DNA of 64,000 nucleotides from assembly GCA_963734575.1 (NCBI GenBank), contig CAVTHT010000007.1, positions 288,549 to 352,548 of the forward strand, given 5' to 3'. The notes under the pieces are model-generated. The model worked only from the letters and a program-made list of their open reading frames with translations. It was not told the DNA's origin and searched no databases. The stretch comes from an uncultured beta proteobacterium (GTDB taxonomy: Bacteria; Pseudomonadota; Gammaproteobacteria; Burkholderiales; Casimicrobiaceae). Positions 1-64,000 of the stretch are shown here, piece by piece. Made by a program: the position numbers and the translations under genes. Every line of letters starts with the position of its first letter. Positions within the stretch are counted from its first letter, which is position 1.

Positions 1-1161
1 ATCATCGCCGCGGCCGAGGTGACGGACGCGCAGGCGATCCATCCCGGGTATGGCTTCCTTTCCGAGAACGCCGACTTCGCGGAGAAGGTGGAGCGCTCCG
101 GCTTCGTGTTCATCGGTCCGAAGCCGGAAACGATCCGGCTCATGGGCGACAAGGTGAGCGCCAAGGTAGCCATGCTGAAGGCGGGCGTGCCGTGCGTGCC
201 CGGCTCCGAAGGCGCGCTGCCCGAAGATCCGAAGGAGATCGTGCGCATCGCGCGCACCGTCGGCTATCCGGTCATCATCAAGGCGGCGGGCGGCGGGGGC
301 GGGCGCGGCATGCGCGTCGTGCACACCGAGGCGGCGCTGCTCTCGGCGGTGACACTGACCCGCGCCGAAGCAGGCGCCGCGTTCGGCAATCCCACGCTGT
401 ACATGGAGAAGTTCCTCGCCAATCCGCGGCACATCGAGATCCAGGTGCTCGCGGACTCGCAGAAGGACGCCGTGTACCTCTTCGAGCGCGACTGCTCCAT
501 GCAGCGGCGCCACCAGAAGATCATCGAGGAGGCGCCGGCGCCGGGCATCCCGGCGCGCGCCCTGGCGCGCATCGGCGAGCGCTGCGCCGAGGCCTGCCGC
601 AAGATCGCCTACCGTGGCGCGGGCACGTTCGAGTTCCTGTACGAGGACGACGAGTTCTTCTTCATCGAGATGAACACGCGCGTGCAGGTGGAGCACCCGG
701 TGACCGAGCTCATCACCGGCATCGACATCGTGCAGGAGCAGATCCGCATCGCGTGCGGGCAGAAGCTGCGCTTCCGCCAGCGCGACATCGTGCGCCGCGG
801 CCACGCGATCGAATGCCGGATCAATGCCGAGGACCCCTACACGTTCGTGCCCTCGCCGGGCCGCATCACCTCGTGGCATGCGCCGGGCGGGCCGGGCATC
901 CGCGTCGATTCGCACGCGTACCACAACTATTTCGTGCCGCCGTACTACGACTCCATGATCGGCAAGGTGATCGCGTACGGCGATACCCGCGAGCAGGCCA
1001 TCGCGCGCATGCGGGTCGCGCTCTCCGAGATGGTGGTCGAGGGCATCAAGACGAACATCCCGCTGCACCAGGAGCTCCTGATGGACGAGAAATTCCTGCG
1101 CGGCGGAACGTCGATCCACTATCTCGAGGAGAAGCTCGCGAAGCGCAAGGCGGCGGCGTGA
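1..1161 (+). CDS. accC: acetyl-CoA carboxylase biotin carboxylase subunit, 3' portion (5' end lies outside the window)
   Basis: ORF 19..1161 translation carries the biotin carboxylase ATP-grasp motifs ([34 protein letters not shown]). The frame runs to the window edge. Confidence 0.9.
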
Positions 1162-1339
1162 GGCGGGGAGCAGGGGCCCCACGCAGTGGGGATGCGACCG
1201 GGCCGAATCGACGCGCGAGGTCGATCCCGACGCGCTCGACACGGCGACACGCGAGCGGAGGGCGAGGCGGCGTGAGGCGGGGAGCAGGGGCCCCACGCAG
1301 TGGGGATGCGACCGGGCCGAATCGACGCGCGAGGTCGAC
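1148..1339. repeat. two copies of a ~75 bp direct repeat (period ~117 bp) that begin at the accC stop codon; each copy carries a small hairpin (cccac-gca-gtggg)
   Basis: ggcggcgtgaggcggggagcaggggccccacgcagtggggatgcgaccgggccgaatcgacgcgcgaggtcga occurs at ~1150 and again at ~1267. The alternate-frame ORF 192..1355 shows the duplicated peptide [24 protein letters not shown]. Confidence 0.8.
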
Positions 1340-1394
1340 GCTGGCGCACGGCTGAGCGACGCACGATGTCCGAGGCGGCCTGACAGGCACCGCG

Positions 1395-2288
1395 ATGGGC
1401 TATCGGGCGGTGCGCTTCGACACCGACGCGGCGGCGGCCGAGAGGTGGGCGGACGCGTTGCTCGATGCCGGCGCGCTGTCGGTGGATCTCGCGGACCGCG
1501 ACGCGGAAACCGTCGCCGAGTCGCCGCTCTACGGCGAGCCTGGCAGCGACGTTGCAGTGGCATGGCCTGCCACGCGCCTCACGGCGCTCTTCGGCGACCA
1601 GGACGCCCTCGACCGCGCGCTCGCGGACGTCGTGGCCACGATGGGACCCGTGCCGCCGTACGTGGTCCTCGACGTACCCGAGCAGGACTGGGTGCGCGCC
1701 ACGCAGGCGCAGTTCGGGCCGATACGCATCGACGAGCAGTTGTGGATCATCCCGTCGTGGTCGGACGTCGGTCGATCCGGACGCGGTCAATCTCGTGCTC
1801 GACCCCGGTCTCGCTTTCGGTACGGGGTCGCATCCGACGACACGGCTTTGCCTCGCCTGGCTGTCGGCCGACCCTGCCGGGAGGCGCGACCGCTGCTCGA
1901 CTACGGCTGCGGGTCCGGCATCCTCGCGATCGCCGCCGCGCGGCTGGGCGCATCCGATGTCGTCGGCACCGACATCGATCCGCAGGCCATCGTCGCGAGC
2001 CGCGACAACGCGGCGCGCAACGGCGTCGCGGCCCGGTTCTTCGCGGCCGACGCTGTCCCGTCCGAGCGGCTGTTCGACGTCGTGGTGGCCAACATCCTGG
2101 CCAATCCGCTGATTGTGCTCGCACCCGCGCTGGCGCACCGTGTGGTGCCCGGTGGCCGGCTGCTGCTGTCGGGCATCCTCGTCGCGCAGGCTGCAGAGGT
2201 ACAGGAAGCGTACCGCCCCTGGTTTAGAATCGCGCCGTGGAAGGAGGAGGACGGCTGGGTCGCGCTCGAGGGAACGCGCCTGCGCTGA
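1395..2288 (+). CDS. prmA: ribosomal protein L11 methyltransferase; two compensating frame switches near 1760-1880
   Basis: The N-terminal and C-terminal PrmA motifs ([28 protein letters not shown]) lie in frame 0. The central conserved segment [31 protein letters not shown] lies in the frame of ORF 1465..2112. Confidence 0.85.
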
Positions 2289-2321
2289 TCACCACGCCAA
2301 CGACGCTCCACCCGCCCCGGA

Positions 2322-3470: not shown

Positions 3471-4884
3471 ATGACGACCCCCGCCGACGTGCTCAAGATG
3501 CTCAAGGAGAAGGAGGTGAAGTTCGTCGACCTCCGCTTCACGGATACCCGTGGCAAGGAGCAGCACGTCTCGGTGCCGACCAAGCAGTTCACGATGGACA
3601 AGTTCGAGAACGGCCACGCCTTCGACGGCTCGTCGATTGCCGGCTGGAAGGGCATCCAGGCTTCCGACATGCTGCTCATGCCGGACGCCGGCACGGCCTA
3701 CATCGATCCGTTCATGGACGAGACCACGCTCAACGTCATGTGCGACGTCGTCGAGCCGTCCGACGGCAAGGGCTATGAGCGCGATCCGCGCTCGCTCGCC
3801 AAGCGCGCCGAGGCGTACCTCAAGTCGACCGGACTGGGCGACACCGCGTACTTCGGTCCCGAACCCGAGTTCTTCATCTTCGACGCCGTCGAGTGGTCGG
3901 TGGACATGTCGGGAAGCTACTGCAAGGTGTTCTCGAGCGAGGCCGCATGGTCGAGCGCCGAGAAGTTCGAAGGCGGCAACATGGGCCACCGGCCGTCGGT
4001 GAAGGGCGGCTACTTCCCCGTGCCCCCGGTCGATCACCTCCAGGACGTGCGCTCCGCGATCTGTCTCGCGCTCGAGCAGATGGGCGTCGAGGTCGAAGTG
4101 CATCACCACGAGGTGGCGAACGCCGGCCAGTGCGAGATCGGCACCAAGTTCGAGACGCTCGTGAAGCGGGCGGACTGGCTGCAGATGCTGAAATACGCGG
4201 TGCACAACACCGCCCATGCGTATGGCAAGACCGCCACGTTCATGCCGAAGCCCATCGTCGGCGACAACGGGTCGGGCATGCACGTGCACCAGTCGATCTG
4301 GAAGGACGGCAAGAACCTCTTCGCGGGCGACGGCTACTCGGGCCTCTCCGAAGCTCGCGCTGTACTACATCGGCGGCGTCATCAAGCACGCGAAGGCGCT
4401 CAATGCGATCACCAATCCGGGCACCAACTCGTACAAGCGTCTCGTGCCCGGCTTCGAGGCCCCGATCAACCTCGCGTATTCGGCACGCAACCGGTCCGCG
4501 GCGATCCGCATTCCTTACGTCACGAACCCGAAGGGCCGGCGCATCGAGGTGCGCTTCCCGGATCCGACGGCGAATCCGTACCTCGCGTTCTCCGCCTTGC
4601 TGATGGCCGGCCTCGACGGCATCCAGAACAAGATCCACCCGGGCGACCCGATGGACAAGAACCTGTACGACCTCGAGCCGGAAGAGGCCGCGCAGGTGCC
4701 GCATCCGTGCGCGTCGCTGGACGAGGCGCTCGATCACCTGGCGCGCGATCGCGAGTTCCTCACGCGCGGCGGCGTGTTCACCAATGACATGCTGGACGGC
4801 TACATGCAGCTCAAGATGGAGGAGGTCACGCGCTTCCGCATGACCACGCATCCGGTCGAGTACGAGATGTATTACAGCCTGTAA
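3471..4884 (+). CDS. glnA: glutamine synthetase type I; frame switch near 4340-4360
   Basis: RBS caggagacagcaATG. N-terminal [33 protein letters not shown]. The C-terminal half continues in the frame of ORF 4216..4884 ([17 protein letters not shown]...[23 protein letters not shown]). Confidence 0.9.
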
Positions 4885-9000: not shown

Positions 9001-11073
9001 CTAGGGCGGGGTGATCATCCCATTATGGCGGAGCAGTGCCTCGATCTGCGGTGGCCGACCGCGGAACGCTACGAATGACTCGATAGCCGGTCGGCTGCCC
9101 CCTTGCGCGAGCACTTCGTCGCGGAAGCGCGCACCGGCCTCCGCCGAGAGCACGCCCGCTTCCTCGAACAGGCTGTAGGCGTCAGCGGAGAGCACCTCGG
9201 CCCATTTGTAGCTGTAGTACCCGGCGGCGTAACCGCCGGCGAAGATGTGCCCGAACGCGTGCATGAAACGGTCGTAGTCGGGGCGCGGGATCACGGCCAC
9301 CTCGTCGCGCACGGCGTCGAGCACTGCCTGCGGCGAGACCTAGGCGCTGCCGCCGTGCGGGTCGTAGGCCGAGTGGAGCAGCATGTCGAACAGCGCGAAC
9401 TCGAGCTGGCGCACCGTCGCGAGACCGCTCTGGAAGTTCTTCGCGGCGAGCATGCGGTCGAAGAGCGCGTGCGGCAGCGGCTCGCCGGTGTCGACGTGCG
9501 CGGTCATGTGCCGCACCACGTCCCATTCCCAGCAGAAGTTCTCCATGAACTGGCTGGGAAGCTCGACCGCATCCCACTCGACGCCCTGGATGCCCGACAC
9601 GCCGGCGACCTCGACGCGCGTCAGCAGCTGGTGCAGGCCGTGGCCGAATTCGTGGAAGATGGTGATCACGTCGTCGTGGGTGAAGGTCGCGGGCTTGCCT
9701 CCGACCGGCGGCCGAGCAGGTTGCAGGTGAGGTACGCGACCGGGATGCTGGAGCGTGGCCGCCGATGCGGCGGCGGTTGATCGCGTCGTCCATCCACGCG
9801 CCGCCCTGCTTGCCCGTCGCGCGCGTAGTTGTCGAGGTAGAACTGGCCGATCGATCGCGCCGTCGCGATCGACGATGTCGAAGAAGCGCACGTCGGATGC
9901 CAGGTCGGGGCCTTGCGATTCGCGGATGTGGATCGCCGTAGATCGTCTCGACGACGCGGAACAGCCCGGCGAGCACCTTGGGCTCGGGGAAGTACTGCCG
10001 CACTTCCTGCTCGGAGAACGCGTAGCGCTTCGCCTTGAGCTTTTCGGATGCGTACGCGACGTCCCACGGCTCGAGTTGCGTCGAGCCCGAGGTCGGTGCG
10101 CGCGAACGCCACGAGCTCGGCGTAGTCGCGCTCGGCGAACGGCTTCGCGCGGGCCGCGAGGTCGCGCAGGAACGCGAGCACCTCGTCGGAGCTCGCCGCC
10201 ATCTTGGGCACCAGCGACACCTCGGCGAAATTGCGGTAGCCGAGCAGCACGCTCTCCTCGTGGCGCAGCTTGAGGATCTCGCCGATGATCGCGGTGTTGT
10301 CCCAGTCGGGCTTCGCGCCGAGGTCGGACGCGCGCGTCACGAAGCGCGCGATGCATCGTCGTCGCGCAGCGTGCGGTCGTCCGCGTACTGCATGACCGGC
10401 AGGTAGCACGGCATGCGCAGGGTGAGCTTCCAGCCCTCCTTGCCGTCGCTTGCCGCCGCGGCACGCGCTTCGTCGACGACGTCCTGCGGCACGCCGGCGA
10501 GGTCCTTCGCGTCGTCCACGTACAGCGTCCAGTCGTTGGTGGCGTCGAGCACGTTGTCGTCGAACTGCGCGGACAGCGACGCGAGCTCCTCCTGCAGCGC
10601 CTTGAAGCGCGCCTTCTTCTCGTCCGGCAGCTCGGCGCCGCCGAGCCGGAAATCGCGCAGCTCGTTGTCGAGCAGCTTGCGCCGCGCCGCATCGAGCCGC
10701 GGCGAACGCCGTCGACTCGCGCAGCGCGCGATAGCGCGCGTACAGCCGCACGTCCTGCGCGAGCTCGGTGTGGAACGCCGTGATGCGCGGCAGGTTGCCG
10801 TTGTAGGCGTCGCGCAACTCGGGCGTGCTGACGACGGCGTTGAGGTGGCGCACCGCGCCCCACGCGCGCTCGAGGTGGTCGAGCGCGTCGGCGAGCGGCT
10901 CGACGACGTTGTCCCAGGTCGGCTCGCCCGTGTCCTGCGCGACCCGCTCGACGGAGGCGCGCGCCTGCTCGAGCAGCGTGTCGACCGCGGGCGTGACGTG
11001 CTCGGCGCGGATCGACTCGAAGCGCGGCAGGCCCGAGAAGTCGAGCAGCGGATTGGCGGCGGATGCGTCCATG
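9001..11073 (-). CDS. prlC: oligopeptidase A (M3 family); split over all three reverse frames by several indels
   Basis: N-terminus MDASAANPLLDFSGLPRFESIRAEHVTPAVDTLL (frame of 9666..11447). Zinc site HEFGHGLHQLL (9340..10863). C-terminus HAFGHIFAGGYAAGYYSYKWAEVLSADAYSLFEE (9001..9324). Confidence 0.85.
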
Positions 11074-11129
11074 GTATGTCCTGCAGGAAAGGGTTCAGAG
11101 ACTGGCGGACGCGGCGGGGGCCGCGTCGC

Positions 11130-11838
11130 GCCGGCGCAGCTCGGCGTCGAGCTGCGCGAGGTCGTCGGGGGTGCCGACGTTGGCCCAGCGGCCGTGGTGG
11201 ATTTCGCCGCTGACGATGCCGGCGCCGATCCAGGCCCGGAAGAGCGGGCAGCAGTTTGAGCTTCACGCCGCGGGGAAGTTCGGCGAACAGCGCGGTGTCG
11301 TAGAGCCCGATGTTGCCGAAGGTGAGGTGCGGCCCGCCATCGAGCGCGATCCGCTCCCCCGTCGAGCACGAAATCCCCGTCCGGGTGGTAGGGCGGATTG
11401 GGCACCATCACGAGGTGCGCGCGCGGCGCGCGGGCATCGACGGCCATCGCGCGCGACGCGAGCCGTGGAGCGATGCGTAGTCGAAGTCGGTGCAGATGTC
11501 GCCGCTACACGATCAGCAGGATGCCGTCCGTCAGCAGCGGGAAGGCCGTCGCGATGCCGCCCGCGGTTTCGAGCGGCTCGGCCTCGATCGACCACTGCAG
11601 GCGCACGCCGTAGCGGCGACCGTCGCCGAGCGCGTCGACGAGCCGCTGCGCGAGGTGCGAGGCGTTGATCACGATGTCGATGATGCCCGGCGCGCGCAGC
11701 GCCTCGATCTGCCGCACGATGAGCGGCTTGCCGCCGACGGCGAGCAGCGGCTTCGGCACGGCGTCGGACAGCGGACGCATGCGCTCGCCGCGCCCGGCGG
11801 CGAGGATCATGGCGCCGATGCTGCCGTCGATGCATGCG
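11130..11838 (-). CDS. murU: N-acetylmuramate alpha-1-phosphate uridylyltransferase-like nucleotidyltransferase; boundaries approximate
   Basis: MILAAGRGERMRPLSDAVPKPLLAVGGKPLIVRQIEAL nucleotidyl-transferase signature at the 3' end of reverse ORF 11505..13013. The remainder lies in another frame. Confidence 0.65.
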
Positions 11839-11849
11839 GACATGCGATG

Positions 11850-12930
11850 GCGTGTCAGAACGTGTAGCCCGACGCGCTGCGCGATGCCTTCGAGCTCGTC
11901 GAGCAGAGCGCAGCAGTGGCGTGAGCGCGGCGTAGCGCGCGCAGGCGCCGCGCAGGTACGCCATGACGCGCGGCATGTCGGCGAGGTAGCCGGCCTTGCC
12001 GTCGCGATGGTACAGCCGCGCGAAGATGCCGAGCACCTTGAGCTGCCGCTGCACGCCCATCCATTCGAAGTCGCGCCAAACGTACGCTGAAGTCGCGGTC
12101 GACCGGCAGGCCCGCCGCGCGCGCGCGCTCCCAGTAGCGCACCGCGCAGTCGATCTGCTCGTCCTCGTCCCACGCGATGTACGCATCGCGCAGCAGCGAG
12201 ACGAGATCGTAGGTGATCGGCCCGATGACCGCATCCTGGAAATCGAGCACGCCGGGATTGGGCGTGCACACCATCAGGTTGCGCGAGTGGTAGTCGCGAT
12301 GCACGTACACGCGCGGCTGGGCGAGGTTGTTGTCGAGGACGAGACGGAAGGCGTGCTCCAGCACGTCGCGCTCGCTTCGCGTCGAGCGTTGCCCCGACGT
12401 GACGGCGCGACGTACCAGTCGGGGAAGAGGTCGAGCTCGCGCCGCAGCAGCGCCTCGTCGTAGGCGGGCAGCTCGCCTTCGCGCGTGGCGAGCTGCCAGC
12501 GCACCAGCGCGTCGATGGCGTCGAGGTAGAGGTCACGCGCGGACTCGCGATCGAGCGCGGCGAGGTAGGTCCGCGACCCGAGATCGGTGAGCAGCAGGAA
12601 GCCGCGCGTCGACGTCGGACGCGAGCACCTCCGGCGCGTGCACCTGCGCCTCGCGCAGGAGCGTCGCGACGTGCACGAACGGGCGGCAGTCTTCCATCGG
12701 CGGCGGCGCGTCCATCGCGACGAGCGTGCGATGTCCGCGCCACGGGGTGCGCGAGCGTCACGCGGAAATAACGGCGGAAGCTCGCATCGTCCGAGGCCGG
12801 CGCGAGAGTGAATTCGATGCTGCCGAGGACACCCGCAGCCCAGTGCGTCAGGGAGCCAAGACGCGGCGTCACGCGCGGCACGCGCGGCGTCGGCGGGCGA
12901 GGTCGAGAGAACGGGCGCGGCAGGATCCAT
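11850..12930 (-). CDS. amgK: anomeric MurNAc/GlcNAc kinase (aminoglycoside-phosphotransferase fold); several frame switches
   Basis: SIEFTLAPASDDASFRRYFRV; RVYVHRDYHSRNLMVCTPNPGVLDFQDAVIGPITYDLVSLLRDAYI; C-terminal QLKVLGIFARLYHRDGKAGYLADMP. Immediately followed by murU, as in Pseudomonas. Confidence 0.7.
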
Positions 12931-13086
12931 CGTCGGCGGGTGCAATGCGGCGCACCGGCGGCAGCCGTGCGGCGGGAAATGGTGGCGGTCGCTGCGTTCA
13001 CGTCACACCACATGGACGAGGTGCGTCGCTGGCCAAGTAGAATGCCCGGATTCTAGCTTGGCAGCAGCGCCGTTGCATCCGCAGCA

Positions 13087-15442
13087 ATGAAGCATTCCCT
13101 CTGCTCACTCCTCGTCCTCGCCGCTGCCGGCACCATCGCGACGCGTGCAATCGCGGCGGAGGGCAACGCATCTGCCGACGCTACTCCCGCGCCGCGACTG
13201 AAGCTCGCGCCGGACCTCACGCCGCCGGCGCGCGTGCAGATGCGCGTGCCGGGTACGCGGCCGCGCGCCCGCGACGTGGCGCACGGCCCAGCCGAGCAGG
13301 GCGCGCTGTTCCTGCGCGCCGACCGGCTCGAAGGCGACGGCCGCCGACCACGTCGACGCCGAGGGGCACGTCGAGTTGCGCGCGCGCAGCGAGACGGTGC
13401 TCGCCGACTGGCTGCGCTACGACTTCACGGCGGACGAGGTCTGGGGCAAGGGCGACGTCGTGCTCCGTCGCGGGATCGACTGGATCACCGGCCCCGAAGC
13501 GAAATACCGGCCGGAGACGCAGACGGGGTTCTTCGCCACCCCGCGCTACTTACCTGGGCGAGATCGGCGGACGCGGCACCGCGAGCGAGATTCGCTTCAC
13601 CGGACCCGATCAGTTCGAGGCAACCGAGGCGCGCTTCACGACGTGCGTCGCGCCGCGCGAGGACTGGTACGTGCGCATGGGCGAGCTCGAGGTGGACCAG
13701 GCGCGCAAGATCGGCACGGCGCACCACGCGCCGTCGTTTTCCTCGGCGCGCCGATCGCCTACACGCCCTGGATGTCGTTCCCGCTCTCGGACGAGCGCAA
13801 GTCGGGCTTTCTCGCGCCGATCCTCGGCTCGACCGGCACGCGCGGCTTCGAGCTCGCGACGCCGTATTACTTCAATCTCGCTCCCAACTACGACGCGACG
13901 GTGACGCCGCGGCTCATGACCAAGCGCGGCGTGCAGCTCGGCGCGCAGTTCCGGTATCTCTTGCGAGCCGTCCGCGGCGGCGAGATGAACGTCGAGGACC
14001 TGCCGAACGATCGCGTGACGGGGACGAACCGCTACGCGCTCGTCGTGGAAGCACAACCAGAACCTCGATTCGTGGGTGAGGGCCTCGCCGCGTACTGGGA
14101 CCTCGAACAAGGTCTCCGACGACACGTATTTCTGCGGATCTCGCGGACCGCATCGCGATCACGTCGGCAGACGACGCTGCCGCGCGAGGGCGGCTTCGCC
14201 TATACGCGCGGGCCGTGGCGCTTCCTCGCGCGCGAGCAGGCGTTCCAGACGCTGCAGGATCCGAACGCTCCGCCCGTGGGAACGCCGTACAACCGCATGC
14301 CGCAGCTGGTGGCCGCGATGCGCGAGATCGACTGGCGCGGTCTCACGTTCGCCGGCACCGGCGAGTACGTGCGCTTCCGCATCCCACGCTGCCGACCGGC
14401 CAGCGCGTGTACGCGTATCCGACCGCGGCGTGGGCTCGCCAGGGCGCCGCGTGGTTCGTGACCGCCCGCGCCGGCGTGCACGCGCGTCACTACGATCTCG
14501 ACCAGCCCGGTCGATGGCCGACCACCGCCGACTATCGCAATCCCGATCACCTCGCTCGACTCCGGCCTCGTCTTCGAGCGCGACTGGCATGTCGTTCGGC
14601 CAGCAACGTGGTGCAGACGCTCGAGCCGCGCGCGTTCTACGTCTACATCCCGTATCGCGACCAGAGCCGCGATCCCCGCGTTCGACACGGCGATCGACGA
14701 TTACAACTTCGGCCAGCTCTTCAGCGAGAACCGCTATCTCGGCAACGACCGCATCGGCGACGCCAACCAGCTCACGGTCGCGCTCACCTCGCGCCTCATC
14801 GATCCGCCGACGGGGGCCGAGCGCCTGCGCGTGGCGCTGGGCGAACGCTTCTACTTCGAGAACCAGCGGGTCACGCTGAACGAGCCCGCGCGCTCCGCAT
14901 CGCGCTCCGACGTGCTGCTCCTCGCCGAAGGACGGCTGAACGAGGCCTGGTCGATGGCGGGCCTGATGCAGTACAACTTCGCCGCGTCGCGCTCGGAACG
15001 CTTCGACCTGGGCGCGCGTTACACGCCGGCGGCGGGCAGGATACTGAGCGCCAGCTACCGCTACACGCGCCAGTTCGTCGATCCTTCGGGACTCAATCTG
15101 GAGCTTCGCCAGTTCGACGTCGCGGCGCAGTGGCCCATCACCGCCAACTGGACGTTTCTCGGGCGGTGGAACTACTCGCTGGTCGATCGCAAGACCCTGG
15201 AGGGGGTGGTCGGGGTCGAGTACAATGCCGATTGCTGGGTCGTGCGCGTCGTCGCGCAGCGCCTGACGACGACCACCCAGACGACCACGACATCGGTGTA
15301 CCTGCAGCTCGAGCTCACCGGGCTCGCGCGGTTCGGCACCAATCCCCTGGAACTGCTGCGTCGCACGGTCCCGGGGTACCTGAAAACGAACGATCCCGCC
15401 GTCTCGCCCCGCGAGCGCGGCAACCTCTTTCCCGAATTCTGA
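13087..15442 (+). CDS. lptD: LPS-assembly outer membrane protein LptD (OstA/Imp); several frame switches
   Basis: Signal peptide MKHSLCSLLVLAAAGT. LSDERKSGFLAPILGSTGTRGFELATPYYFNLAPNYDATVTPRLMTKRGVQLGAQFRYL. C-terminus NYSLVDRKTLEGVVGVEYNADCWVVRVVAQR. Confidence 0.9.
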
Positions 15443-15452
15443 GGTTCATGCA

Positions 15453-19323: not shown

Positions 19324-19365
19324 GCGGAAAATGGCGGGGGCCTGGAGGTTGTGAAGGTGCGCGGC

Positions 19366-21849: not shown

Positions 21850-21975
21850 AGCAAACGATGTTGCGGGAGACGGAGCGTGGCGCTACGCGGCATGGAAGCG
21901 CGCTCGCCGCGCACGGTGCGGAGCAGTCGACCCTCGGAGTGCGCGAACCCGTCGTGCCGCACTCCGATGCGGCTA

Positions 21976-22182: not shown

Positions 22183-22220
22183 CGTGCTCCGGCGGGTCTC
22201 GCCGTCGAAGCGCGATCTTA

Positions 22221-41931: not shown

Positions 41932-41985
41932 CGGGGTTCGGTGCGGAGCGAAAGGTTAGCACAGCGCCTGCTGCGGCGTGCCGCC

Positions 41986-43149: not shown

Positions 43150-43221
43150 GGGGTTCCGTTGGTAATTCGAGGCGCTGGCTCGCGCCGTTCAACGCGCGAG
43201 GCACCGCCTCGTGTCGGGTAA

Positions 43222-44265: not shown

Positions 44266-44358
44266 TTATACTTTCGGCGGTCCGGTCGGACATCGCACAG
44301 AGGCAAGGCACATGCCAGAGGGCCGCCGCTGCGCTGACCATGCCGTTGTCATTGGATT

Positions 44359-45051: not shown

Positions 45052-45101
45052 ATCGCCGGCGCGTGCCACACTCGCGCCCACCGAACTGCACGGAACATCC
45101 A

Positions 45102-48662: not shown

Positions 48663-50891
48663 GAGCGGATGGTGACCTCGCAGGCGTCGCTGTCGCCGAA
48701 CCGCTCGACCTTCACGTCTTCCGTCACGGAGATCCGTGCGTGCGCGCCGTCCATCGCGACCGCCGCCTGCGCGAAGCCATCGAGCGCCTGCGTCGGCCGG
48801 CCGAACAGCCAGAGCTGCGCGAGCGGGCGCGCCGTGTCGATGTCGCCGGTGTGCTGCACCGCGGGTCCCAGCGGCAGCACGTAGCCTTCACGCCCGAAGA
48901 CCGGGAACTGATCGAGCGTCGCGCGGTAGCGCATCACGCGATTGCCGGGCACGCGCTGGCGCGAGTTGAGATCGAACCAGCCGCCCGGCGGCAGCGCGAT
49001 CTCGGCCTCGCCATCGGGCTGCACGATCGGCGCGACGAGGAGCGCATCGCCGCACATGAACTGGGTTTCGCAGCGCCGCGCGAGGGTGCTGCCCGGAAAG
49101 GCGAGCGGCATCGCGCGCATGACCGGCATGCCGGTGCGCGAGGCCTGCTGCAGGACTCGCTCGAGGTACGGCAGCAGGCGGTACCTGAAACGCGATCCAC
49201 TTGCGCGCGATCGCCTCGGCTTGCTCGCCGCCGGCCCACGGCTCGCGCTCCGCCGGCCCGCGCACCACGCAATGCGAGGCGAACAGCGCGGCCTGCAGCC
49301 AGCGCATGCCGAGCTCGGCATCGTGGGGTCCCGCACCATACGTGCCCGGTGCCGCGAAGGCGTGCAGCGGCATGCCGCTCATGCCGAGCGACAGCGCACC
49401 GCGGATCGTCGCGGCGAGCCCCTCCCAGTCGTTCTGCGCGGCGCGGCCCGCGGGCACGGCGGCACGCTGACCCGCGCTCCAGCCGGCACGCGCCACGACG
49501 AGGGGCGGTCCGTCCTGCGGCGCGCGAAAGCGGGCGGCGGCATCGTGCACGCAACGGTTGAACAGCACGGGATAGACGTTGTGCAGGCGCGCGCCGCGCT
49601 CGCCGCCGTGCGCGAACGCATCTTCCGGAACGTGCTCGCCGCCCTCGGTCTGGACGGCATCGACACCCACCGCGAAGAGATCTGCATGGGCATCGCGCCA
49701 CCAGCTCGCCGCCGCGGGGTTGGCGAAATCCACGAGGCCGCAGTCGGGCGGCTGCGCCAGCGCCGACTTGCCGGCCGCCGACGCGTTGCCGAACCATGCG
49801 CCGCTCAGCACGTACGGCCCGCCGTGCGCGGCACGCAGCAGGTAGCCGCGACTCGCGAGCGCCTCGAAGAGCGGCGAATGCACCGACACGTAGGGCGACT
49901 CGCTGACCGCGACGCGAACATCGTGGCGCTTGATGTCGCGCAGTGCTGCGGCGGGCTCGCCGTATCGCGTGGGGTCCCAGTCGAAATCGAAACCGCGTTC
50001 GGTGGTCCACGTCGCAGCCGCATCGAGCGCGATCACGTCGCACGGGATCTTGCGCCGGCGCAGCTGGGCGATGGCCCGCGCCGCATCCTCGGGTGTCGCG
50101 TAGGCGCTGCGCGCGAGCTGCAGCCCCAGGCTCCACAGCGGCACGTCCGGCGCGTGGCCGGTGACCTCGGCGTGGCGCTCGAGGATCGTCGCGGGCGTGT
50201 CGGCGGCGTACAGAAAGAGGTCCAGCGCCTCGTCGTCGACGACGAAGCCGTACGTGCGATGCGACCAGTCCGGATGCCCGACGCCGTGGATCACCGCGCC
50301 GGGCGTGTGCACGAACGCGCCCCACGCCCCCTTGCCACGCCCCGGGCTCCAGGCGAACGGCGTCTCGTGGTGCGCGAGGCCGGCGTTGACGCCCTGCGCG
50401 TCCTGCACCCACGAATGCAGCAGCTGTCCGCGACGATCGAGCGGCCCGTATTTCTCGCCGAGACCATAGACCGGCTCGCCTGCCGCGAGCGCGAAGGCCG
50501 CCATCCACTGGCCACCCTGGCGCACGCGACCGAACGCCGGCAGGCGCGTCGTGCCGTCCGGCAGCTCGTCCTCGATGGAGCCGACGAGCGCGACGCCTTC
50601 GCGCACGAGCCGGAAGGCGAGCGGCGCGCCGCGCAGCTCGAGCGTGGCGTCGCCGCTGCCGAAGCGATAGACGCCGGCTTCCTGCGCGAACGTGCAGGGC
50701 TTTGCGCGCCCCGCGATGAGCCCGTGGTCGGGCCGCGTCTTCGGTCCGATGCGCAGCCGAAATACGCCGGGGCCGAACGACGACACCTCGAGGATGTCGC
50801 CGGTGGACGTTGCGAACGATGCGCCGGCGGACGTCGAGCCGATGCAATGCGGCGCCTCGAGGCGCAGGTACGAGGTGGCGTCGAAAGGCAT
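48659..50891 (-). CDS. glycoside hydrolase family 31 alpha-glucosidase/alpha-xylosidase; one frame switch
   Basis: GEKYGPLDRRGQLLHSWVQDAQG ... VIALDAAATWTTERGFDFDWDPTRY ... C-terminal domain PYLERVLQQASRTGMPVMRAMPLAFPGS. Its stop overlaps the pdxA ATG (ATGA). Confidence 0.8.
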
Positions 50892-57760: not shown

Positions 57761-59294
57761 ATGTCCGCTGCTGCCACCCTGCCCGCCTTCCGGCGCGCGC
57801 TCGCCCCGTTGCTACTCGCGAGCGCCATCGCCGCGGCGTGGGCCCCGCCCACGCACGCCTCGAGCCATCGCGAGGCGCCCTTCATCGCCGGCCTGCCCAA
57901 GGTCGACGCGAGCGACTTCTACATGTTCCGCAGCTACGAGCCGGGCCGCGAGGACTACGTGGTCCTGGTCGCCAACTACATCCCGCTGCAGGATGCCTAC
58001 GGCGGTCCCAACTTCTTCAAGCTGGACGCGAATGCGCTGTACGAGATCCACGTCGTCAACGACGGCGGCGCGCGCGAGAACCTCACGTTCCAGTTCCGGT
58101 TCCAGAACGTGAACGACGACAACCAGCTCACGGTCGGCGGCAAGCAGGTCTCGATCCCGCTGGTGCAGAACGGCGTCAAGGACGTGAACCAGCCCAACGA
58201 CCCGGCGCTCAACGTGCACGAGACGTACACCGTCGACGTCGTCCGCGGCCCGCGCCGTACCGGCAACCGCGCAGCCGGTGACGAACCTCAACACCGGCGG
58301 CACGAGCTTCGACAAGCCGGTCGACAACATCGGCATGAAGACCATCTCGGACTACGTCCGCTACGGCAATCGCCACGTGTGGGATGTCGCGATTCCCGGA
58401 TGCACCGGCGGCGGCCGGGTGTTCGTCGGCCAGCGCAAGGATCCGTTCGTCGTGAACCTCGGCGAGACCTTCGACCTCGTCAACATCAAGTATCCCGCCG
58501 TCGAGCTCAACCCGGCGGCCGAATTCGCGACGGTCGACACGCTGTCCGACAAGAACGTCACCTCGATCATCACTGGAGGTGCCGATCGCGTGCCTCACCG
58601 AAGGCAAGGGCACGGTCATCGGCGCGTGGACGACGCGCGAGCCTTCCCGCAAGCCAGGTGCTCGCGGCGACGGGCGGCAGCGGCCTCGATCCGACGACGC
58701 AAAGCGGCGAGTACGTGCAGGTCTCGCGCCTCGGCATGCCGCTGGTGAACGAGGTCGTCATCGGGCTCAAGGACAAGAACCGCTTCAACGCGAGCGAGCC
58801 CAAGGACGACGCGCAGTTCGCCGACTACGTGACCAACCCGACGCTGCCGGCGCTGATCGAGATCCTGTTCGGCAAGGCCGGCGTGAAAGCGCCGACCAAC
58901 TTCCCGCGCACCGACCTCGTGGCGGCCTTCCTCACCGGCGTGCCGGGCCTCAACCAGCCCGCGAGCGTCACGGCCTCCGAGATGCTGCGTCTCAACACGG
59001 CCATCGCACCGACGCCCGAAGGGCTCGCAGAAGCGCCTCGGCGTGCTCGCCGGCGACAACGCGGGATTCCCGAACGGGCGCCGGCCCGGTGACGACGTCG
59101 TCGACATCGAGCTGCGCGTGGCGATGGGCGTGCTGTGCACGCTGTCGCTCGGCGGCTGCACGCCGGCCGATGCGCCGGCTGGGACGCTGCACTACACGGA
59201 CGGCGCCTACATCACGGACGCGTACTTCTCGGCGGACTTTCCGTTCCTGCGCGCGCCGCATCCCGGGATCGCCGAACGCCGGACAACCCGTTGA
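57761..59294 (+). CDS. secreted DUF4331-family protein; several frame switches
   Basis: RBS ggagaggag then ATG. Signal peptide, then SSHREAPFIAGLPKVDASDFYMFRSY...HVVNDGG, ...LGMPLVNEVVIGLKDKNRFN..., and C-terminal GDNAGFPNGRRPGDDVVDIELRV across frames. Confidence 0.65.
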
Positions 59295-59379
59295 AGGCGA
59301 AGCAGCGCTGACGTAGCGCGAGCGGTGCCGCGCCTCCCGGTGCGGCACCGTCCTTCCTGCATCCGCACGCGAGGTCGCG

Positions 59380-60580
59380 ATGCTCCGTTACCGCTCGTTC
59401 CCCAGGGCTGCACGCCTTGCCGTCGCAGCCCTGCTCTTCTCTCCGTCGTCGCGACCGTAGCGGCGGCGCCGTACACGCCGGCGTCCGACGACGTGGTGCT
59501 GGAGCGCCTGCCCGAGAAGCTCGATCCGTCGCTCGCGGAACTGAAGCGCCTGCGCACGGCGCTCGTGCGGCGACCAGACGACACCACTCTCGCCGCACGC
59601 CTCGCGCGGCGCGCGATAGAGGCATCGCGCGAGACCGGTGATCCGCGCTTCCTCGGCCAGGCGCAGGCGGCACTGGCGCCATGGTGGAACGCGCCGGACG
59701 CGCCGGTGGACATCGTGGTGCTGCGCGCGACGATCCGCCAGAGCCTGCACGACTTCCCCGCAGCGCTCGCGCGATCTCGATCGCGTGCTGGCGATCGCAC
59801 CCGCGCACGGCGCAGGCGCGGCTCACCCGCGCCACCGATGCTCACCGTGGTCGGCCGCTACGACGAGGCGACGCGCGACTGCGACGCGCTCGCGCGCCTC
59901 GCCGTCGAGCTCGTGACTCGCGCGTGCCGTGCGGCACCCGCCAGCCTCGACGGACGCGCGGCGGAAGCGTACGCAAGCCTGGCGAGCGCCCTGCAGCGCA
60001 CCCGGCGCGACCACGCCGGAGCTGGCCGCGTGGGGCCATACCCTCGCCGCGGAGATCGCCGCACGCCGCGGCGACGCGACCGCCGCGGAGGCGCACTTCC
60101 GGCAGGCACTCGCCGCCGATCCGCGCGATGCCTACCTGCGCGGCGCGTACGCCGATTTCCTGCTCGATCGCGGCCGGCCGCGCGAAGCCGCTGCACTCGT
60201 CGCGGGCGAGCTGCGCAACGACGGTCTCCTGCTGCGCCTCGCCCTCGCGGAAACGCGCTTCACCGATGCGACAGCGGAGAGCGGCGCGCTGCCGCCGACA
60301 TCGCGAGGACCTCGCTGCCCGCTTCGATGCGTCGCGGCGCGCGGCGATATCGTGCACCGGCGCGAGGAGGCGCGCTATGCGCTGCTGCTCGAAGGCGATG
60401 CCGCCGCGCGCTCTGGCGCTGGCCCGCGCCAACTGGGCGGTGCAGCGCGGAGCCGGCGGACCTGCGCATCCTCGTCGAGGCCGCACGCGCGCGACGAACG
60501 AGCGACGCGCCTCGACGTCGTGCGCCGCTGGCGGCACGACGCACCGACTGCGACGACGTCGCGGTGGTCGCCGCACTGGG
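59380..60580 (+). CDS. TPR-repeat protein with signal peptide; frame switches, 3' end not resolved
   Basis: MLRYRSFPRAARLAVAALLFS..., then TPR-like repeats (GDPRFLGQAQAALAPWWNAPD..., AEAHFRQALAADPRDAYLRGAYADFLLDRGRPREAAALV). Confidence 0.5.
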
Positions 60581-60591
60581 AGAGCGCGCGC

Positions 60592-61754
60592 ATGAAGCGC
60601 ATCGATGCGCTGCTCGCCGTGCTCGCTGCTGGCGTGCCACGTTCGCGACCGGCGGCGCTCGCGCACAAGCCGAGCGACAGCTATCTCACGCTGAAGCGCG
60701 ACGGCGCGGCGTGCAGGGCCGCTGGGACATCGCGCTGCGCGACCTCGACGCCGCGCATCGGCCTCGACGCCAACGGCGACGGCGAGATCACCTGGGGCGA
60801 GCTGCGCGCGCGCGCGCGCGGCGATCGCCGCGTACGCCCTGTCGCGCCTGGCGCTGCGCTCCGGCGGCGAGCCGTGCGCGCTGCCACGTCGCGCAGCTGC
60901 GTGGATCACCACACCGACGGCGCCTACGCGGTGCTCGAGCTCGTCGGCGACTGCCCGCAGCGGCCCGCACGCTCGACAGTCGAGCTATCGGCCTGCTGTT
61001 CGACATCGACCCGCAGCATCGCGGACTGCTGCAGTTCGTGGAGCGCGGGCGGCACGCACCAGCGTGGTCTTCGCCGGCGGACCGCGCCGCGACAGGTCGT
61101 CGGCGGCGAGCCGGCGGCGCGCTGCGCAGTTCCGCCACCTACGTGCGCGAAGGCGTGTGGCACATCTGGCTCGGCGTTCGACCACATCCTGTTCCTGCTG
61201 TCGCTGCTGCTGCCCGCGGTGCTCGTGCGCCGCGACGCGGCGCTGGCAGCCGGCGGCGTCGTTCCGTGCCGCGTTCGTCGACGTGCGAAGGTCGTCACCG
61301 CGTTCACGCTCGCGCACTCGATCACGCTGTCGCTCGCGGCGCTCGGCGTCGTTGCGCTGCCGTCGCGCTGGGTGGAGTCGGCGATCGCGCTCTCGGTGGT
61401 GCTCGCCGCGCTCAACAACCTGCTTCCCGCTCGTGCGCCAAGCGACGCTGGATCGCCGCATTCGCGTTCGGCCTCGTGCACGGCTTCGGCTTCGCGGGCG
61501 CGCTGCGCGGATCTCGGCCTGCCGTCGGGCTCGCTCGCGCTTTCGCTCGCCGGCTTCAACCTCGGCGTCGAGCTCGGCCAGCTCGCGATCGTCGCGGCGT
61601 TCCTGCCGCTCGGCGTTCGCGTTGCGCGCGACGTCGCGCCTACCGCCGCGTCGCGCTTGCCGGCGGCTCCGCGGTCATCGCCGCGGTCGCGGCGGTGTGG
61701 CTCGTCGAGCGCGCGTTCGACGTGCCGGTGTTCGCCGCGTTCGCCGCGTCCTGA
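60592..61754 (+). CDS. HupE/UreJ_2-family putative metal (Ni/Co) transporter with an N-terminal periplasmic domain; frame switches
   Basis: RBS gggagag then ATG. MKRIDALLAVLAAG...AHKPSDSYLTLK..., then TM core HILFLLSLLLPAVLV, KVVTAFTLAHSITLSLAALGVVALP, FAFGLVHGFGFAGAL, and LSLAGFNLGVELGQLAIVAAFLPL. Confidence 0.65.
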
Positions 61755-61758
61755 GCGC

Positions 61759-62279
61759 TACAGGAGCGGTGCCCGCGCTCGGATCGGCGGGAAGCTCCTC
61801 CGGCACGTCCTGCCAGGGCATGACGTGGATCCCGCTCGCGAGCAGCGATACGCCGACGGGCTCACCCTTGGCGAGCCGGTTGCGCATCGCGACGTGCATC
61901 GTGAGCGTCGTGTGCAATGCCATGTCGGGGCGGCCGTTCACGTGGATGCTCAGGTTGGCCTGCGCGCCCAGCGGGATGAATTCGGCGATGACGCCCTGCA
62001 CCGGGTTCTCGTGCTCGCCGCGCGAGGGCCGGTCGCGCCGATGCAGGATCACCGCGTCGGCGGGAATCGTCCACGCCACCTGCGTTCCGGGCTCGAAGCC
62101 CGCGCGTGCCGCGCCTCGAGCTGCACGCCCTGCCAGTCGAGCACCGTCATCGTGTCGCCCGCGGGCTGCGCGGCGACGCGCGCGCTGAACACGTTCTTGA
62201 TGTCGACGAGACGCGCGACGAGCACGTTCGCCGGGGCGAGTCGTGCAGGCACGGTCCTTGCGCGCCTTGCCCGCCTCAT
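61759..62279 (-). CDS. tandem TOBE (Mop-like, molybdate/oxyanion-binding OB-fold) module. It is either a separate ~140-aa di-Mop protein or the C-terminal extension of the upstream MVP-like ORF. One 1-nt indel lies between the two TOBE domains.
   Basis: TOBE-1: ANVLVARLVDIKNVFSARVAAQPAGDTMTVLDWQGVQLEA...GFEPGTQVAWTIPADAVILH (compare ModC NVLPGTL...LRLGDQTLWV...LPPGSRLRVRIAARDVSLA). TOBE-2: NPVQGVIAEFIPLGAQANLSIHVNGRPDMALHTTLTMHVAMRNRLAKGEPVGVSLLASGIHV (compare ModE SARNQLPGII...). Confidence 0.5.
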
Positions 62280-63820
62280 CCACGCCGAAGATGGCGCGGC
62301 GGATGAGCACGCTGGCGTTCTTGTGGAACGTCTCGAAGTCGTTCTCCGCCGCCACCTGGCGGATGCGCGAGGCGAGGTTCTCGCACACGTACCCGATGAA
62401 GTCGTTCACCCGGAAGATGGCCTTGTCCTTCTCCGAGTCCCCCTCCACGTCGAACTGCCACTTGTACGAGAGCTTGATGCGCAGCCGGGCGTGATCCCGC
62501 GTGGCCACCTCGAACAGATCCGTGGCGAAGTCCGGCCCCAGGCGCAGCATGAGCACCTTGAGCTGCCTCGGCCGCTTGGGCGTGCTGCCGGACAGGTCCA
62601 GCACCGTCACGTCCTCGTACGGGCGCAGCATCACCTTCGCCGGGCCGAACTCGACTCGCGCGTGGTTGGTCTCGAAGTCGTTGATCAGCACCGCCGTGTT
62701 GTCCTCGATGCGCAGCACGATGGCTCGCGTGCGGTCGATCCGCTCCGGAGACGGCGCGGCCGAGCGCGGCGCCTTGGGGTCCTTGCCATCCACGGCGGCC
62801 AGCTGCGGCGCGGGAGGAGGCGGCGCCAGCCCCAGCAGCGCCTCGGCCTCCGCGGAGAGCCGCTTCTCGTGCAGCTCCTGGTGGGCCTCGGGCATGAACT
62901 GGCACGGGCCCTGGACCAGCGACACCTTGCCGGAGCGCAGATCCCTCACGTAGAGGCCCTCGCCCTGCCCCAGCGACAGCGCGACGATCTCCTTGTGGAT
63001 CAGCACCCGCTCGTTGGGCACGTACGTCCGAGGCCCGCGCACGATCCACGTATCACCCGCCTTGCGCGCCCGCGACTCGCCGCCCTCGTCCGGCTCGGAG
63101 AAGTCATCGAGCGCCTGGAGCTTCAGCCCCTGCATCTCGGAGAGCACGTGCTTGCGGCGGACGTCGCCCTCGAGCGCCTCGCCCGGCTCGAGGAAGAAGA
63201 CGTCCGGCCCGGAGATGATCTTGCGGCGGCCCTCCTGGATCTTCCCGGTGGTGCGGTCCACGGGGTTGAGCACCACGCAGTACTCGGTCTCCTTGAGCAT
63301 GCGAGCCTTCTCGGCGGAGACGACGACCACCGCGGCATTGGGCACGTAGCGGCCGGGGCCACGGACCAGCCACTCGTCACCGGCCTCGCGGCGACGCGGC
63401 CCGCCGGGGGCCCGCTCGTCCATGAAGGCGTTGAGCGCCTGCAGCCGCAGCGCGTCGTAGACTCCGAGCACGTGCTCGGGGGTGATCTCTCCCTCCATCT
63501 CTTCGCCGGGGTACAGCGGGAAGACCTGGGGACCGACGCGCACCTCGCGATCTCCCACCGCGATGCGCGCCTGGCCGAACTCGTCCAGCGCGACCTTGCC
63601 GCCCTCGCGCACCACGGGGTTGCGCACCACGCACCAGTTGCCGGTGCCCAGCTCGATCATCCGGCTCTTGGTGACGAGCGTGAGGTGGGCCTCCAGGGTG
63701 AGGACCTTGGGGCCGATCTCCACCAGCACGACGCCGCGGTTCGCGTCCTCGATGTAGGCGTACTCGCGGTTCTTCAGGGAGATGCGCTGGATGGCTTCGG
63801 TTGGAGTTCGGGATCGCCAT
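62280..63820 (-). CDS. major vault protein (MVP) homolog: N-terminal MVP/vault repeats plus MVP shoulder (SPFH-like) domain. One frame switch at codon ~8. There is no in-frame stop before the TOBE module.
   Basis: RBS GAGGAGG-N5-ATG at 63820. Segment-by-segment matches to human MVP: FPLYPGEEMEGEITP vs FPLYPGEVLEKDITP; AGDEWLVRGPGRYVPN vs AGDEWLFEGPGTYIPR; YCVVLNPVD...FFLEPGEALEG...VLSEMQGLKLQAL vs YCVILDPVG...FFLQPGEQLEQ...VLSEQQGLLLRAL; GDTWIVRGPRTYVPN vs GDHWLIRGPLEYVPS; EGLYVRDLRSGKV vs EGIYVQDVKTGKV; TPKRPRQLKVLMLRLGPDFATDLFEVATRDHARLRIKLSYKWQFDV vs [85 protein letters not shown] vs [39 protein letters not shown]. Confidence 0.8.
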
Positions 63821-64000
63821 GAGTTCCTCCTCGGGTTCGCGGCAAGGGACTGCCAGCCGCGTGCCGCCCAGAGCCCAGAGCGGCGCCCGTTTTCCAGCAC
63901 CAAAATGGCACGCCTCCGCTCCAATCCGGCCCCGAGGCCGTGGTAGCTTCCGGCGCATGCCCGACGTCAGCTCGCGAAAGTTCGTGCAGATCTTCCAGCT

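What the first reader, a model, noticed from the sequence alone, without database searches (positions are those of the whole stretch)
1..64000. Pervasive short-range frame switches in otherwise conserved genes
At least 25 conserved genes change frame over a few bases and often change back: prmA, glnA, prlC, murU, amgK, lptD, ABC permease, tctC, ferredoxin, vanZ, GNAT, potA, potB, potD, ubiB, tim44-like, proC, rsmA, GH31, DUF4331, TPR, hupE, MVP, Mop.

Neighbouring genes are intact: surA, pdxA, pilT, pilU, ntrC, ubiE, and the two large paralogs.

This density of indels in essential genes (glnA, lptD, rsmA, proC) is implausible biologically. It points to homopolymer or indel errors, for example unpolished long reads or a low-coverage MAG. 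Every pseudogene call here is therefore provisional, and the apparent fusions need confirmation.
Basis: seen in the sequence. Interest (0 to 1): 0.5.

Follow-up and report, generated by a model that had tools for sequence, protein, structure and literature searches.

The report
Assembly indel errors, not gene decay
The many broken genes in this 64-kb stretch are caused by roughly a hundred stray single-base insertions that behave like sequence-assembly errors rather than real mutations, so this is a data-quality warning, not biology.

Summary
Intact orthologues from four related Casimicrobiaceae MAG loci cover 38,959 coding bases of the window. Aligned against them, the window carries 95 frame-breaking one-base indels in 21 of 38 genes. 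The same five genes in 80 relatives give 0-2 calls each, at most 7; the window gives 39.

The indels look like consensus errors, not mutations:
- 80 are insertions and 15 deletions, the opposite of the deletion bias I recall for bacteria.
- They fall on all codon phases (8:9:4) and share no sequence motif.
- They sit in three blocks at 7.2 per kb (9.7-14.7, 33.3-37.2 and 58.3-61.6 kb), against 0.4 per kb elsewhere.
- Once the indels are removed, the hit genes show no relaxed constraint. dN/dS is 0.14-0.26 and there are no extra lineage-specific amino-acid changes.

These are not homopolymer errors: 21 of 27 precisely placed insertions are not next to an identical base, and none lies in a run of 4 or more. 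In prmA, the case I read through, the frame changes back because three +1 insertions add up.

The sequencing platform cannot be identified, and no same-species sequence was found for a direct test. Every pseudogene or fusion call in this window should be treated as an artefact until the reads are checked.

The parts
1768..1889 (+). prmA: three successive +1 insertions. The frame leaves at about 1768 and is restored by about 1889.
   Evidence: Three-frame reading. Codon Viterbi switches at 1768 and 1889. The repaired protein aligns through both junctions with PrmA structure 1ufk.
4340..4352 (+). glnA: a single +1 insertion (GAA[G]CTC). The reading frame moves from frame 2 to frame 0 and stays there to the stop codon.
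   Evidence: The repaired GlnA aligns at residues 8-469 with 9n4x_A, E 8.5e-228.
9342..9344 (-). prlC: an in-frame TAG where the closest relative has TGG. This is the only internal stop by substitution seen in the referenced genes.
9709..14671 (.). Dense block A: 39 frame-breaking indels (35 insertions, 4 deletions), mean spacing 131 bp. They fall in prlC (13), murU (5), amgK (8) and lptD (13).
   Evidence: DNA alignment to L001. Protein-to-DNA alignment. Spacing fits a Poisson process within the block.
14672..23526 (.). Clean stretch: the 3' third of lptD, surA, two large tandem paralogues, DUF3460 and an RlmL-like gene, with no frame-breaking indel.
   Evidence: for the referenced genes. The second paralogue is a single 827-aa ORF.
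23527..23527 (-). ABC-2 permease: one +1 insertion.
26057..26057 (+). tctC: one +1 insertion.
28269..28269 (-). ABC transporter ATPase: one +1 insertion near the 5' end.
29198..29198 (-). Ferredoxin-like gene: one +1 insertion.
29414..31491 (-). VanZ-like / GNAT region and the 3' end of potD: about 15 frame switches. No orthologue was available, so this rests on reference-free evidence and is less certain.
   Evidence: Codon Viterbi. VanZ Pfam hit on one fragment.
33350..37178 (-). Dense block B: 17 indels (14 insertions, 3 deletions) in potB (7), potA (4), ubiB (5) and one hypothetical gene on the + strand.
   Evidence: Alignment to L082 proteins.
37683..39260 (-). Unidentified coding region whose GC3 phase hops about 11 times. 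It is probably a gene shredded by the same indels.
   Evidence: No ORF here has a Pfam hit.
40807..45061 (.). Clean stretch: ubiE, a GBBH-like gene, pilU, pilT and yggS, with no frame-breaking indel.
45524..45524 (+). proC: one +1 insertion.
46880..46880 (-). rsmA: one +1 insertion 13-17 codons before the stop codon.
49190..49190 (-). GH31 glycosidase: one +1 insertion.
58265..61634 (+). Dense block C: 28 indels (22 insertions, 6 deletions) in DUF4331 (6), a TPR protein (8) and a HupE-like protein (14).
   Evidence: Alignment to L017 proteins. Codon Viterbi switch points agree. Spacing analysis.
62114..62239 (-). Two frame changes between the MVP homologue and the Mop/TOBE-like ORF. They may be indels or simply gene boundaries; this is unresolved.

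Best explanation
The frame switches are errors in the deposited consensus sequence, not features of the organism's DNA. Roughly 100-120 spurious single bases were written into the contig, and far fewer were dropped.

The process was blind to reading frame and to sequence motif. It ran at about 0.7% per base in three or four blocks of 3-6 kb and about 0.04% per base elsewhere.

The most likely origin is a single-molecule long-read assembly, probably a metagenome-assembled genome, in which those blocks were supported by too few or poorly aligned reads for the consensus or polishing step to remove insertion calls. That origin is inferred, not shown.

The underlying genes (glnA, lptD, prlC, ubiB, potAB and the others) are almost certainly intact and functional in the living cell.
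For: 1. Strength of the observation. 95 events lie in 38,959 coding bp, against 0-2 per roughly 7.5 kb for the same genes in 80 relatives. The relatives include both Illumina and Nanopore MAGs, and all read these genes in a single frame.

2. Direction. 80 insertions against 15 deletions (binomial p 7e-12). The convincing isolated events outside the blocks are all insertions. From memory, not re-checked here, real bacterial indel mutation is biased towards deletion (Mira, Ochman and Moran 2001).

3. No relaxed selection.
- dN/dS against L001 is 0.14-0.26 in prlC, murU, amgK and lptD, against 0.04-0.19 in intact neighbours.
- In a relative-rate test with four outgroups, window-specific amino-acid changes near the indels are 3.7%, against 4.2% for L001.
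- Neutral decay that produced 39 indels in 5 kb should have brought hundreds of substitutions with it.
- Only one internal stop by substitution was seen.

4. Blind to coding and to sequence. Insertion codon phases are 8:9:4. No 2-, 3- or 4-mer is enriched around the 80 insertion sites after multiple testing.

5. Piecewise error rate. The rate is 7.2 per kb inside the blocks and 0.40 per kb outside. Spacing within blocks is Poisson-like with CV about 1. Heterogeneity among genes gives chi-square 148 on 37 df. The blocks cut through genes: the last 770 bp of lptD are clean.

6. Implausible as biology. Core genes carry 13 shifts each (lptD, prlC), yet the repaired proteins align end to end with homologues and solved structures.

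7. Precedent in the same family. The Nanopore-only MAG locus L005 has four +1 insertions within about 80 nt of murU, also not in long homopolymers. That catalogue was built with Flye plus one round of Medaka, and its authors report Nanopore-associated errors in lower-coverage MAGs (PMC12313526).
Against: - No reads, depths or quality values are available, so the error origin is inferred, not observed.
- The signature is not the usual one for long-read assemblies. The literature read here describes mostly deletions, and errors tied to homopolymers (PMC12007338; abstract of PMC8812927). Here the errors are insertions that avoid homopolymers: 21 of 27 are not next to an identical base against 13 expected (P = 0.001).
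- The insertions create new CpG dinucleotides more often than random insertion would: 10 of 27 against 3.2 expected. I cannot name a platform or program that gives exactly this profile.
- Most Nanopore MAG loci of the same family are far cleaner than the window.
- The window's source and any same-species sequence are absent from the collections searched, so no independent assembly confirms the intact state for this species.
Confidence: 0.9

Rival explanations
1. The errors are homopolymer-length errors, the specific artefact the first reader named. In that case the platform (454, Ion Torrent, older Nanopore or HiFi) miscounted runs of identical bases.
For: A minority of insertions extend a run of 2-3 identical bases: 6 of 27. 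Homopolymer indels are described as the commonest residual error in long-read assemblies (PMC12007338; PMC8812927 abstract).
Against: 21 of 27 precisely placed insertions are not adjacent to an identical base, which is more than random insertion would give (13 expected, P = 0.001). None lies in a run of 4 or more, although block A contains 19 such runs. Insertions outnumber deletions 80 to 15, whereas homopolymer miscounts in Nanopore assemblies are mostly deletions.
Confidence: 0.03
2. The artefact comes from a consensus collapsed over mixed strains. Where two co-assembled strains differ by a SNP, the consensus writes both alleles side by side, giving a one-base insertion that differs from its neighbour. 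The blocks would be regions where a second strain's reads piled up.
For: This would explain three features: insertions rather than deletions, the excess of insertions that differ from both neighbours, and the block structure. Collapsed alleles are a documented source of apparent frameshifts in another system (title and abstract of PMC8445201).
Against: Strain-level SNPs sit mostly at third codon positions, so insertions should flank wobble bases. The observed phases are 8 after the wobble base, 9 after codon position 1 and 4 after position 2, so the phase this model disfavours is the commonest. There is no excess of window-specific substitutions in the blocks.
Confidence: 0.12
3. The indels are real and recent pseudogenisation or a mutator burst. 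The organism, or the single cell or lineage sampled, really carries these insertions and is losing these genes.
For: The sequence as given contains them. One true nonsense substitution is also present in prlC. Genomes in decay with many frameshifted genes do exist (general knowledge).
Against: - Core genes with no second copy in the window are hit up to 13 times each (lptD, prlC, ubiB, glnA, proC, rsmA).
- The insertion bias of 80 to 15 runs against the deletion bias I recall for bacteria.
- dN/dS and the relative-rate test show no relaxation of constraint at all.
- The dense blocks stop inside genes.
- Neighbouring non-essential genes, including the two large paralogues of unknown function, are untouched.
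Confidence: 0.03
4. The shifts are decoded through programmed recoding. The cell would read through them by ribosomal +1 frameshifting, transcriptional slippage or RNA editing.
For: Nearly all shifts go in one direction (+1). Organisms with many programmed +1 sites are known among ciliates (Euplotes, general knowledge).
Against: - There is no shared slippery or stimulatory motif: no k-mer is enriched at the 80 sites.
- The sites fall on all codon phases.
- None is conserved in any of 80 relatives.
- Density reaches 13 per gene, with shifts as little as 7-30 nt apart.
- The sites are confined to blocks rather than to gene classes.
- Transcriptional slippage needs homopolymer tracts, which are absent.
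Confidence: 0.01

Closest known systems
Residual indel errors in long-read-only assemblies and MAGs that fragment genes
   Same: One-base indels break otherwise conserved ORFs. The number of broken genes is far above that of relatives. Removing the indels restores full-length proteins. The problem is reported to be worse in low-coverage MAGs (PMC12313526, PMC12007338, PMC9262707 abstract).
   Different: The published profiles read here are dominated by deletions and by homopolymer contexts. This window shows 84% insertions, avoidance of homopolymers, a CpG-creating bias, and sharp blocks of 3-5 kb at about 0.7% error beside nearly clean sequence.
Homopolymer-length errors (454, Ion Torrent, Nanopore R9, PacBio CCS)
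   Same: Both cause one-base frame shifts in coding sequence.
   Different: The indels here are not in homopolymer runs.
Pseudogene-rich decaying bacterial genomes (for example Mycobacterium leprae, Sodalis; general knowledge)
   Same: Many genes are interrupted by frameshifts.
   Different: Here there is no relaxed constraint, insertion rather than deletion bias, core genes hit many times, and damage confined to blocks.
Programmed +1 ribosomal frameshifting (prfB in bacteria, pervasive in Euplotes; general knowledge)
   Same: The shifts are nearly all in the +1 direction.
   Different: There is no conserved shift motif, no conservation in relatives, all codon phases are used, and there are up to 13 sites per gene.

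Membership tests
Consensus/assembly indel artefact | The indels are absent from accurate independent reads of the same DNA. | not testable with these tools
   No reads are available. No same-species sequence was found: best LptD 84%, PilU 93%, SurA 93%, and the exact PilT is not on record.
Consensus/assembly indel artefact | The indels are indifferent to coding: any codon phase, no motif, and no respect for gene boundaries. | tested here: met
   Phases 8:9:4. No enriched k-mer. Block A ends inside lptD.
Consensus/assembly indel artefact | Once the indels are removed, the affected genes look as constrained as intact ones. | tested here: met
   dN/dS is 0.14-0.26 against 0.04-0.19 in neighbours. 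Relative rate is 3.7% against 4.2%. Repaired GlnA and PrmA align end to end with solved structures.
Consensus/assembly indel artefact | The error rate varies in stretches along the contig, as expected if it tracks local read support (my expectation, not documented in a source read here). | tested here: met
   7.2 per kb in the blocks against 0.40 per kb outside, with Poisson-like spacing within blocks. The link to read depth itself is not testable.
Homopolymer-length sequencing error | The indel lies within, and changes the length of, a run of identical bases. | tested here: not met
   21 of 27 insertions are not next to an identical base. 0 of 27 lie in runs of 4 or more, although block A has 19 such runs.
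True pseudogenes / genome decay | Relaxed selection, with dN/dS rising towards 1, excess lineage-specific changes and accumulating stop codons. | tested here: not met
   One internal stop codon was found in about 13,000 aligned codons.
True pseudogenes / genome decay | The indel spectrum is biased towards deletions (recalled as typical of bacteria; not re-checked here). | tested here: not met
   80 insertions against 15 deletions.
Programmed ribosomal frameshifting | A conserved slippery or shift-prone motif at the site. | tested here: not met
   No enriched 2-4-mer within 6 nt either side of the 80 sites.
Programmed ribosomal frameshifting | The shift site is conserved in orthologues of related organisms. 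| tested here: not met
   Orthologues in L001, L081, L082, L017 and 80 surveyed loci are read in one frame.
Transcriptional slippage / RNA editing | A homopolymeric slippery tract at the site, or evidence from RNA. | tested here: not met
   There are no tracts at the sites. RNA evidence is not testable here.

The most novel reading that the evidence does not exclude
The inserted bases are either real or reflect something real in the DNA. One possibility is stretches of 3-5 kb carrying a chemical DNA modification or damage that derails single-molecule base-calling in a CpG-biased way. Another is a genuine insertion-only mutational process acting on patches of the chromosome in a lineage caught just after the event. 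The evidence does not strictly exclude either, because no reads were seen and the signature (insertions, avoidance of homopolymers, CpG creation, sharp blocks) matches no error profile I could document.
Probability: 0.03. Interest if true: 0.6.

Novelty: not a real feature. Interest (0 to 1): 0.07.

Why it matters
The value is practical.

- Any gene call, pseudogene call, apparent gene fusion, completeness estimate or metabolic inference from this contig, and probably from the rest of its genome, is unreliable until it is polished. About a third of the genes in the window would be called broken or fragmented.
- The error signature is a useful caution. These are non-homopolymer insertions clustered in blocks, so correction tools and quality checks that look mainly at homopolymers would miss most of them. 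Reference-guided, frameshift-aware alignment or GC3 frame plots find them easily in a 70% G+C genome.
- Nothing here bears on an open biological question.

Tried and rejected
- Looked up the exact PilT protein to find the source contig or an identical strain. It is not on record.
- Searched 5.8 billion proteins with a repaired LptD and with the intact PilU, hoping for a same-species copy to test the indels directly. The best hits were 84% and 93%, so there is no independent copy. For that reason I did not spend the metagenome scan: the JGI hits in those searches were at most 69% and 90% identical. My E-value cut-off would also have hidden short fragments of the window's own gene.
- Ran tblastx of the whole window against the 80 SurA loci. 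Outside the syntenic part it mostly gave high-G+C noise, but it did point to L016, L017 and others as references for 57.8-61.7 kb.
- Tested whether insertions are double-called wobble SNPs from mixed strains. The codon phases do not fit.
- Tested for a shared motif, including GATC, which looked enriched by eye. Nothing survives multiple testing.
- Scanned ORFs of 37.6-39.5 kb against Pfam and found nothing. That gene remains unidentified.
- The first banded alignment crashed on paths leaving the band. It was rerun with failures skipped, 3 of 322 jobs.
- Tried to name the platform from the error profile. Neither the Nanopore nor the PacBio CCS (HiFi) profile in the papers read matches, so I leave the platform open.
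- Several alignment calls at poorly conserved termini are probably not real and are flagged as weak: tim44-like 40335, SGL 50921/51841, aldose epimerase 52412/52435, hypothetical gene 36066.

Full report
**What the window is.** It is 64 kb at about 70% G+C, with no tRNA gene and no Rfam match. The gene content is that of a betaproteobacterium: accC, prmA, glnA-ntrBC, prlC, murU-amgK, lptD-surA, potABCD, ubiB, ubiE, pilTU, proC, pdxA-rsmA and others. A scan of one genome per species with SurA found no identical sequence. The closest locus, L001, is a Microflora Danica MAG (MFD05942.bin.1.462) at 93% SurA identity and about 83% nucleotide identity. The other hits are mostly Casimicrobiaceae and unclassified betaproteobacterial MAGs at 54-77%.

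**Checking the observation.** In a genome with about 93% G+C at third codon positions, the reading frame can be seen directly.
- A simple frame HMM showed many genes changing frame internally while their neighbours do not.
- L001 is collinear with window 8387-29581 and reads every gene in one frame.
- Two further loci, L081 and L082, were fetched through PilU homologues. They are collinear, in reverse orientation, with window 33-53 kb, and all their genes are called intact.
- L017 and several other SurA loci carry single-frame orthologues of the DUF4331, TPR and HupE-like genes at 57.8-61.7 kb.

I aligned these orthologous proteins to the window DNA with a dynamic program that allows one-base insertions and deletions at a penalty. 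The result was 95 frame-breaking events in 38,959 referenced coding bases, in 21 of 38 genes. An independent, reference-free codon-usage Viterbi places switches at the same coordinates. It also adds a dense patch at 29.4-31.3 kb, and the GC3 phase hops repeatedly in 37.7-39.2 kb. glnA and prmA were read by eye in three frames, and the repaired proteins align end to end with solved structures.

As a control, the same alignment on the same five genes in 80 related loci gives 0-2 calls per locus, at most 7. These are mostly paired calls at divergent termini. The window gives 39.

**Anatomy of the indels.**
- Direction: 80 are one-base insertions in the window and 15 are one-base deletions (p 7e-12). 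This accounts for the 'changes frame and changes back' impression in prmA, where the frame returns after three +1 insertions.
- Distribution: three blocks hold 84 events at 7.2 per kb: 9709-14671, 33350-37178 and 58265-61634. The other 27 kb of referenced coding sequence holds 11 events at 0.40 per kb. Several of those 11 are weak calls, and all the convincing ones are insertions. Within blocks the spacing is as expected for a random process, with CV about 1. Block A ends inside lptD, and it is followed by 8.85 kb without a single event.
- Context: for 27 insertions the close relative L001 allows placement to the base. Of these, 21 are not adjacent to an identical base, against 13 expected for random insertion (P = 0.001). 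None is in a run of 4 or more, although block A has 19 such runs. Ten create a new CpG, against 3.2 expected.
- Inserted bases: they are 70% G or C, like the genome, with no strand asymmetry.
- Codon phase: 8:9:4.
- Motif: no 2-, 3- or 4-mer is enriched within 6 nt of the 80 sites after multiple testing.

**Error or biology.** After the indels are removed, the heavily hit genes look as constrained as their neighbours.
- dN/dS against L001 is 0.14-0.26 for prlC, murU, amgK and lptD, and 0.04-0.19 for intact genes.
- In a relative-rate test with four outgroup genomes, amino-acid changes unique to the window near the indels are 3.7% of sites, against 4.2% unique to L001.
- If 39 indels had accumulated neutrally in 5 kb, hundreds of unconstrained substitutions should have come with them. 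They are not there.
- Only one internal stop by substitution was found, a TGG to TAG change in prlC.
- The insertion excess is also opposite to the deletion bias of bacterial mutation, a point I take from memory of the literature and did not re-check.
- Thirteen shifts each in lptD and prlC, and shifts in glnA, proC, rsmA and ubiB, are not compatible with a living cell unless the shifts are decoded. Nothing supports decoding: there is no motif, no phase preference, no conservation in any relative, and sites lie as little as 7-30 nt apart.

The coherent reading is that the bases were added by the sequencing and consensus process.

**What kind of error.** The papers I read describe residual long-read assembly errors as mainly deletions and mainly homopolymer-associated (PMC12007338; PMC8812927 abstract). 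This profile is therefore unusual.

I considered a consensus that writes both alleles of a strain-level SNP. That would give non-identical-neighbour insertions in blocks. However, the codon phases do not favour wobble positions.

The two-rate block structure, with random spacing inside blocks, fits stretches where the consensus rested on very few or poorly aligned single-molecule reads. This remains an inference.

A small precedent exists in the same family. The Nanopore-only MAG locus L005 has four +1 insertions within about 80 nt of murU, again not in long homopolymers. That catalogue was assembled with Flye and one round of Medaka, and its authors note Nanopore-associated errors in lower-coverage MAGs (PMC12313526). 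Most loci of that catalogue are nevertheless far cleaner than the window. I cannot say that the window comes from it, nor which platform produced it.

**What could not be done.** The decisive test is whether accurate reads reproduce the indels, and it needs the reads. I looked for an independent same-species sequence as a substitute and found none: the exact PilT is absent, and the best LptD, PilU and SurA matches are 84%, 93% and 93%.

**Verdict.** There are three corrections: the errors are insertions rather than homopolymer miscounts, the one change-back read through (prmA) arises from three summed +1 insertions, and the errors are clustered in blocks. This is a sequence-quality artefact of low biological interest. 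All pseudogene and fusion calls in the window should be regarded as artefactual until the assembly is polished.

Noticed in passing
window 62241-63793 (-), with 61744-62097 (-) downstream: A bacterial homologue of the eukaryotic Major Vault Protein, with Pfam Vault, Vault_2, Vault_3, Vault_4 and MVP_shoulder domains all above threshold. It is followed by a small Mop/TOBE-like ORF. It is unclear whether the MVP gene is truncated or frameshifted at 62114-62239.
   Followed up: partly
window 16860-19350 (-) and 19367-21848 (-): Two tandem paralogues of about 800 aa with no Pfam domain, separated by a single stop codon and both free of indels. The closest relative, L001, has only one copy at this position next to surA.
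   Followed up: partly
window 1152-1233 and 1266-1347: An 82-nt direct repeat (95% identical, 114-bp period) whose first copy overlaps the accC stop codon. It could be a real tandem duplication in the accC-prmA spacer or another assembly artefact.
   Followed up: no
window 9342-9344 (-): prlC carries an in-frame TAG where L001 has TGG, next to a GAC to GCC change. It is the only substitution-type stop found in the referenced genes, which suggests substitution errors are much rarer than insertions.
   Followed up: yes
window 13087-16830 (+) versus 46803-48674 (-): lptD-surA is not followed by pdxA-rsmA as I recall it is in many proteobacteria. Here pdxA-rsmA sit 30 kb away on the other strand, downstream of a GH31 gene. 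L081 and L082 share this arrangement, so it is a lineage feature and not a misassembly.
   Followed up: partly
L005 5721-5799 (murU, - strand): A Nanopore-only Microflora Danica MAG shows four +1 insertions within about 80 nt. This is a small-scale version of what the window shows.
   Followed up: partly
proteins P0121, P0124, P0131: PilU homologues of 563-655 aa on long ENA contigs, against the usual length of about 387 aa. They look like fusions with a neighbouring gene, possibly caused by similar indel errors in other long-read assemblies.
   Followed up: no
window 37683-39260: A stretch of about 1.6 kb between ubiB and the gene downstream of the tim44-like gene. No ORF has a Pfam hit and the GC3 phase changes about 11 times. 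It is probably an unidentified gene too fragmented by indels to recognise.
   Followed up: partly
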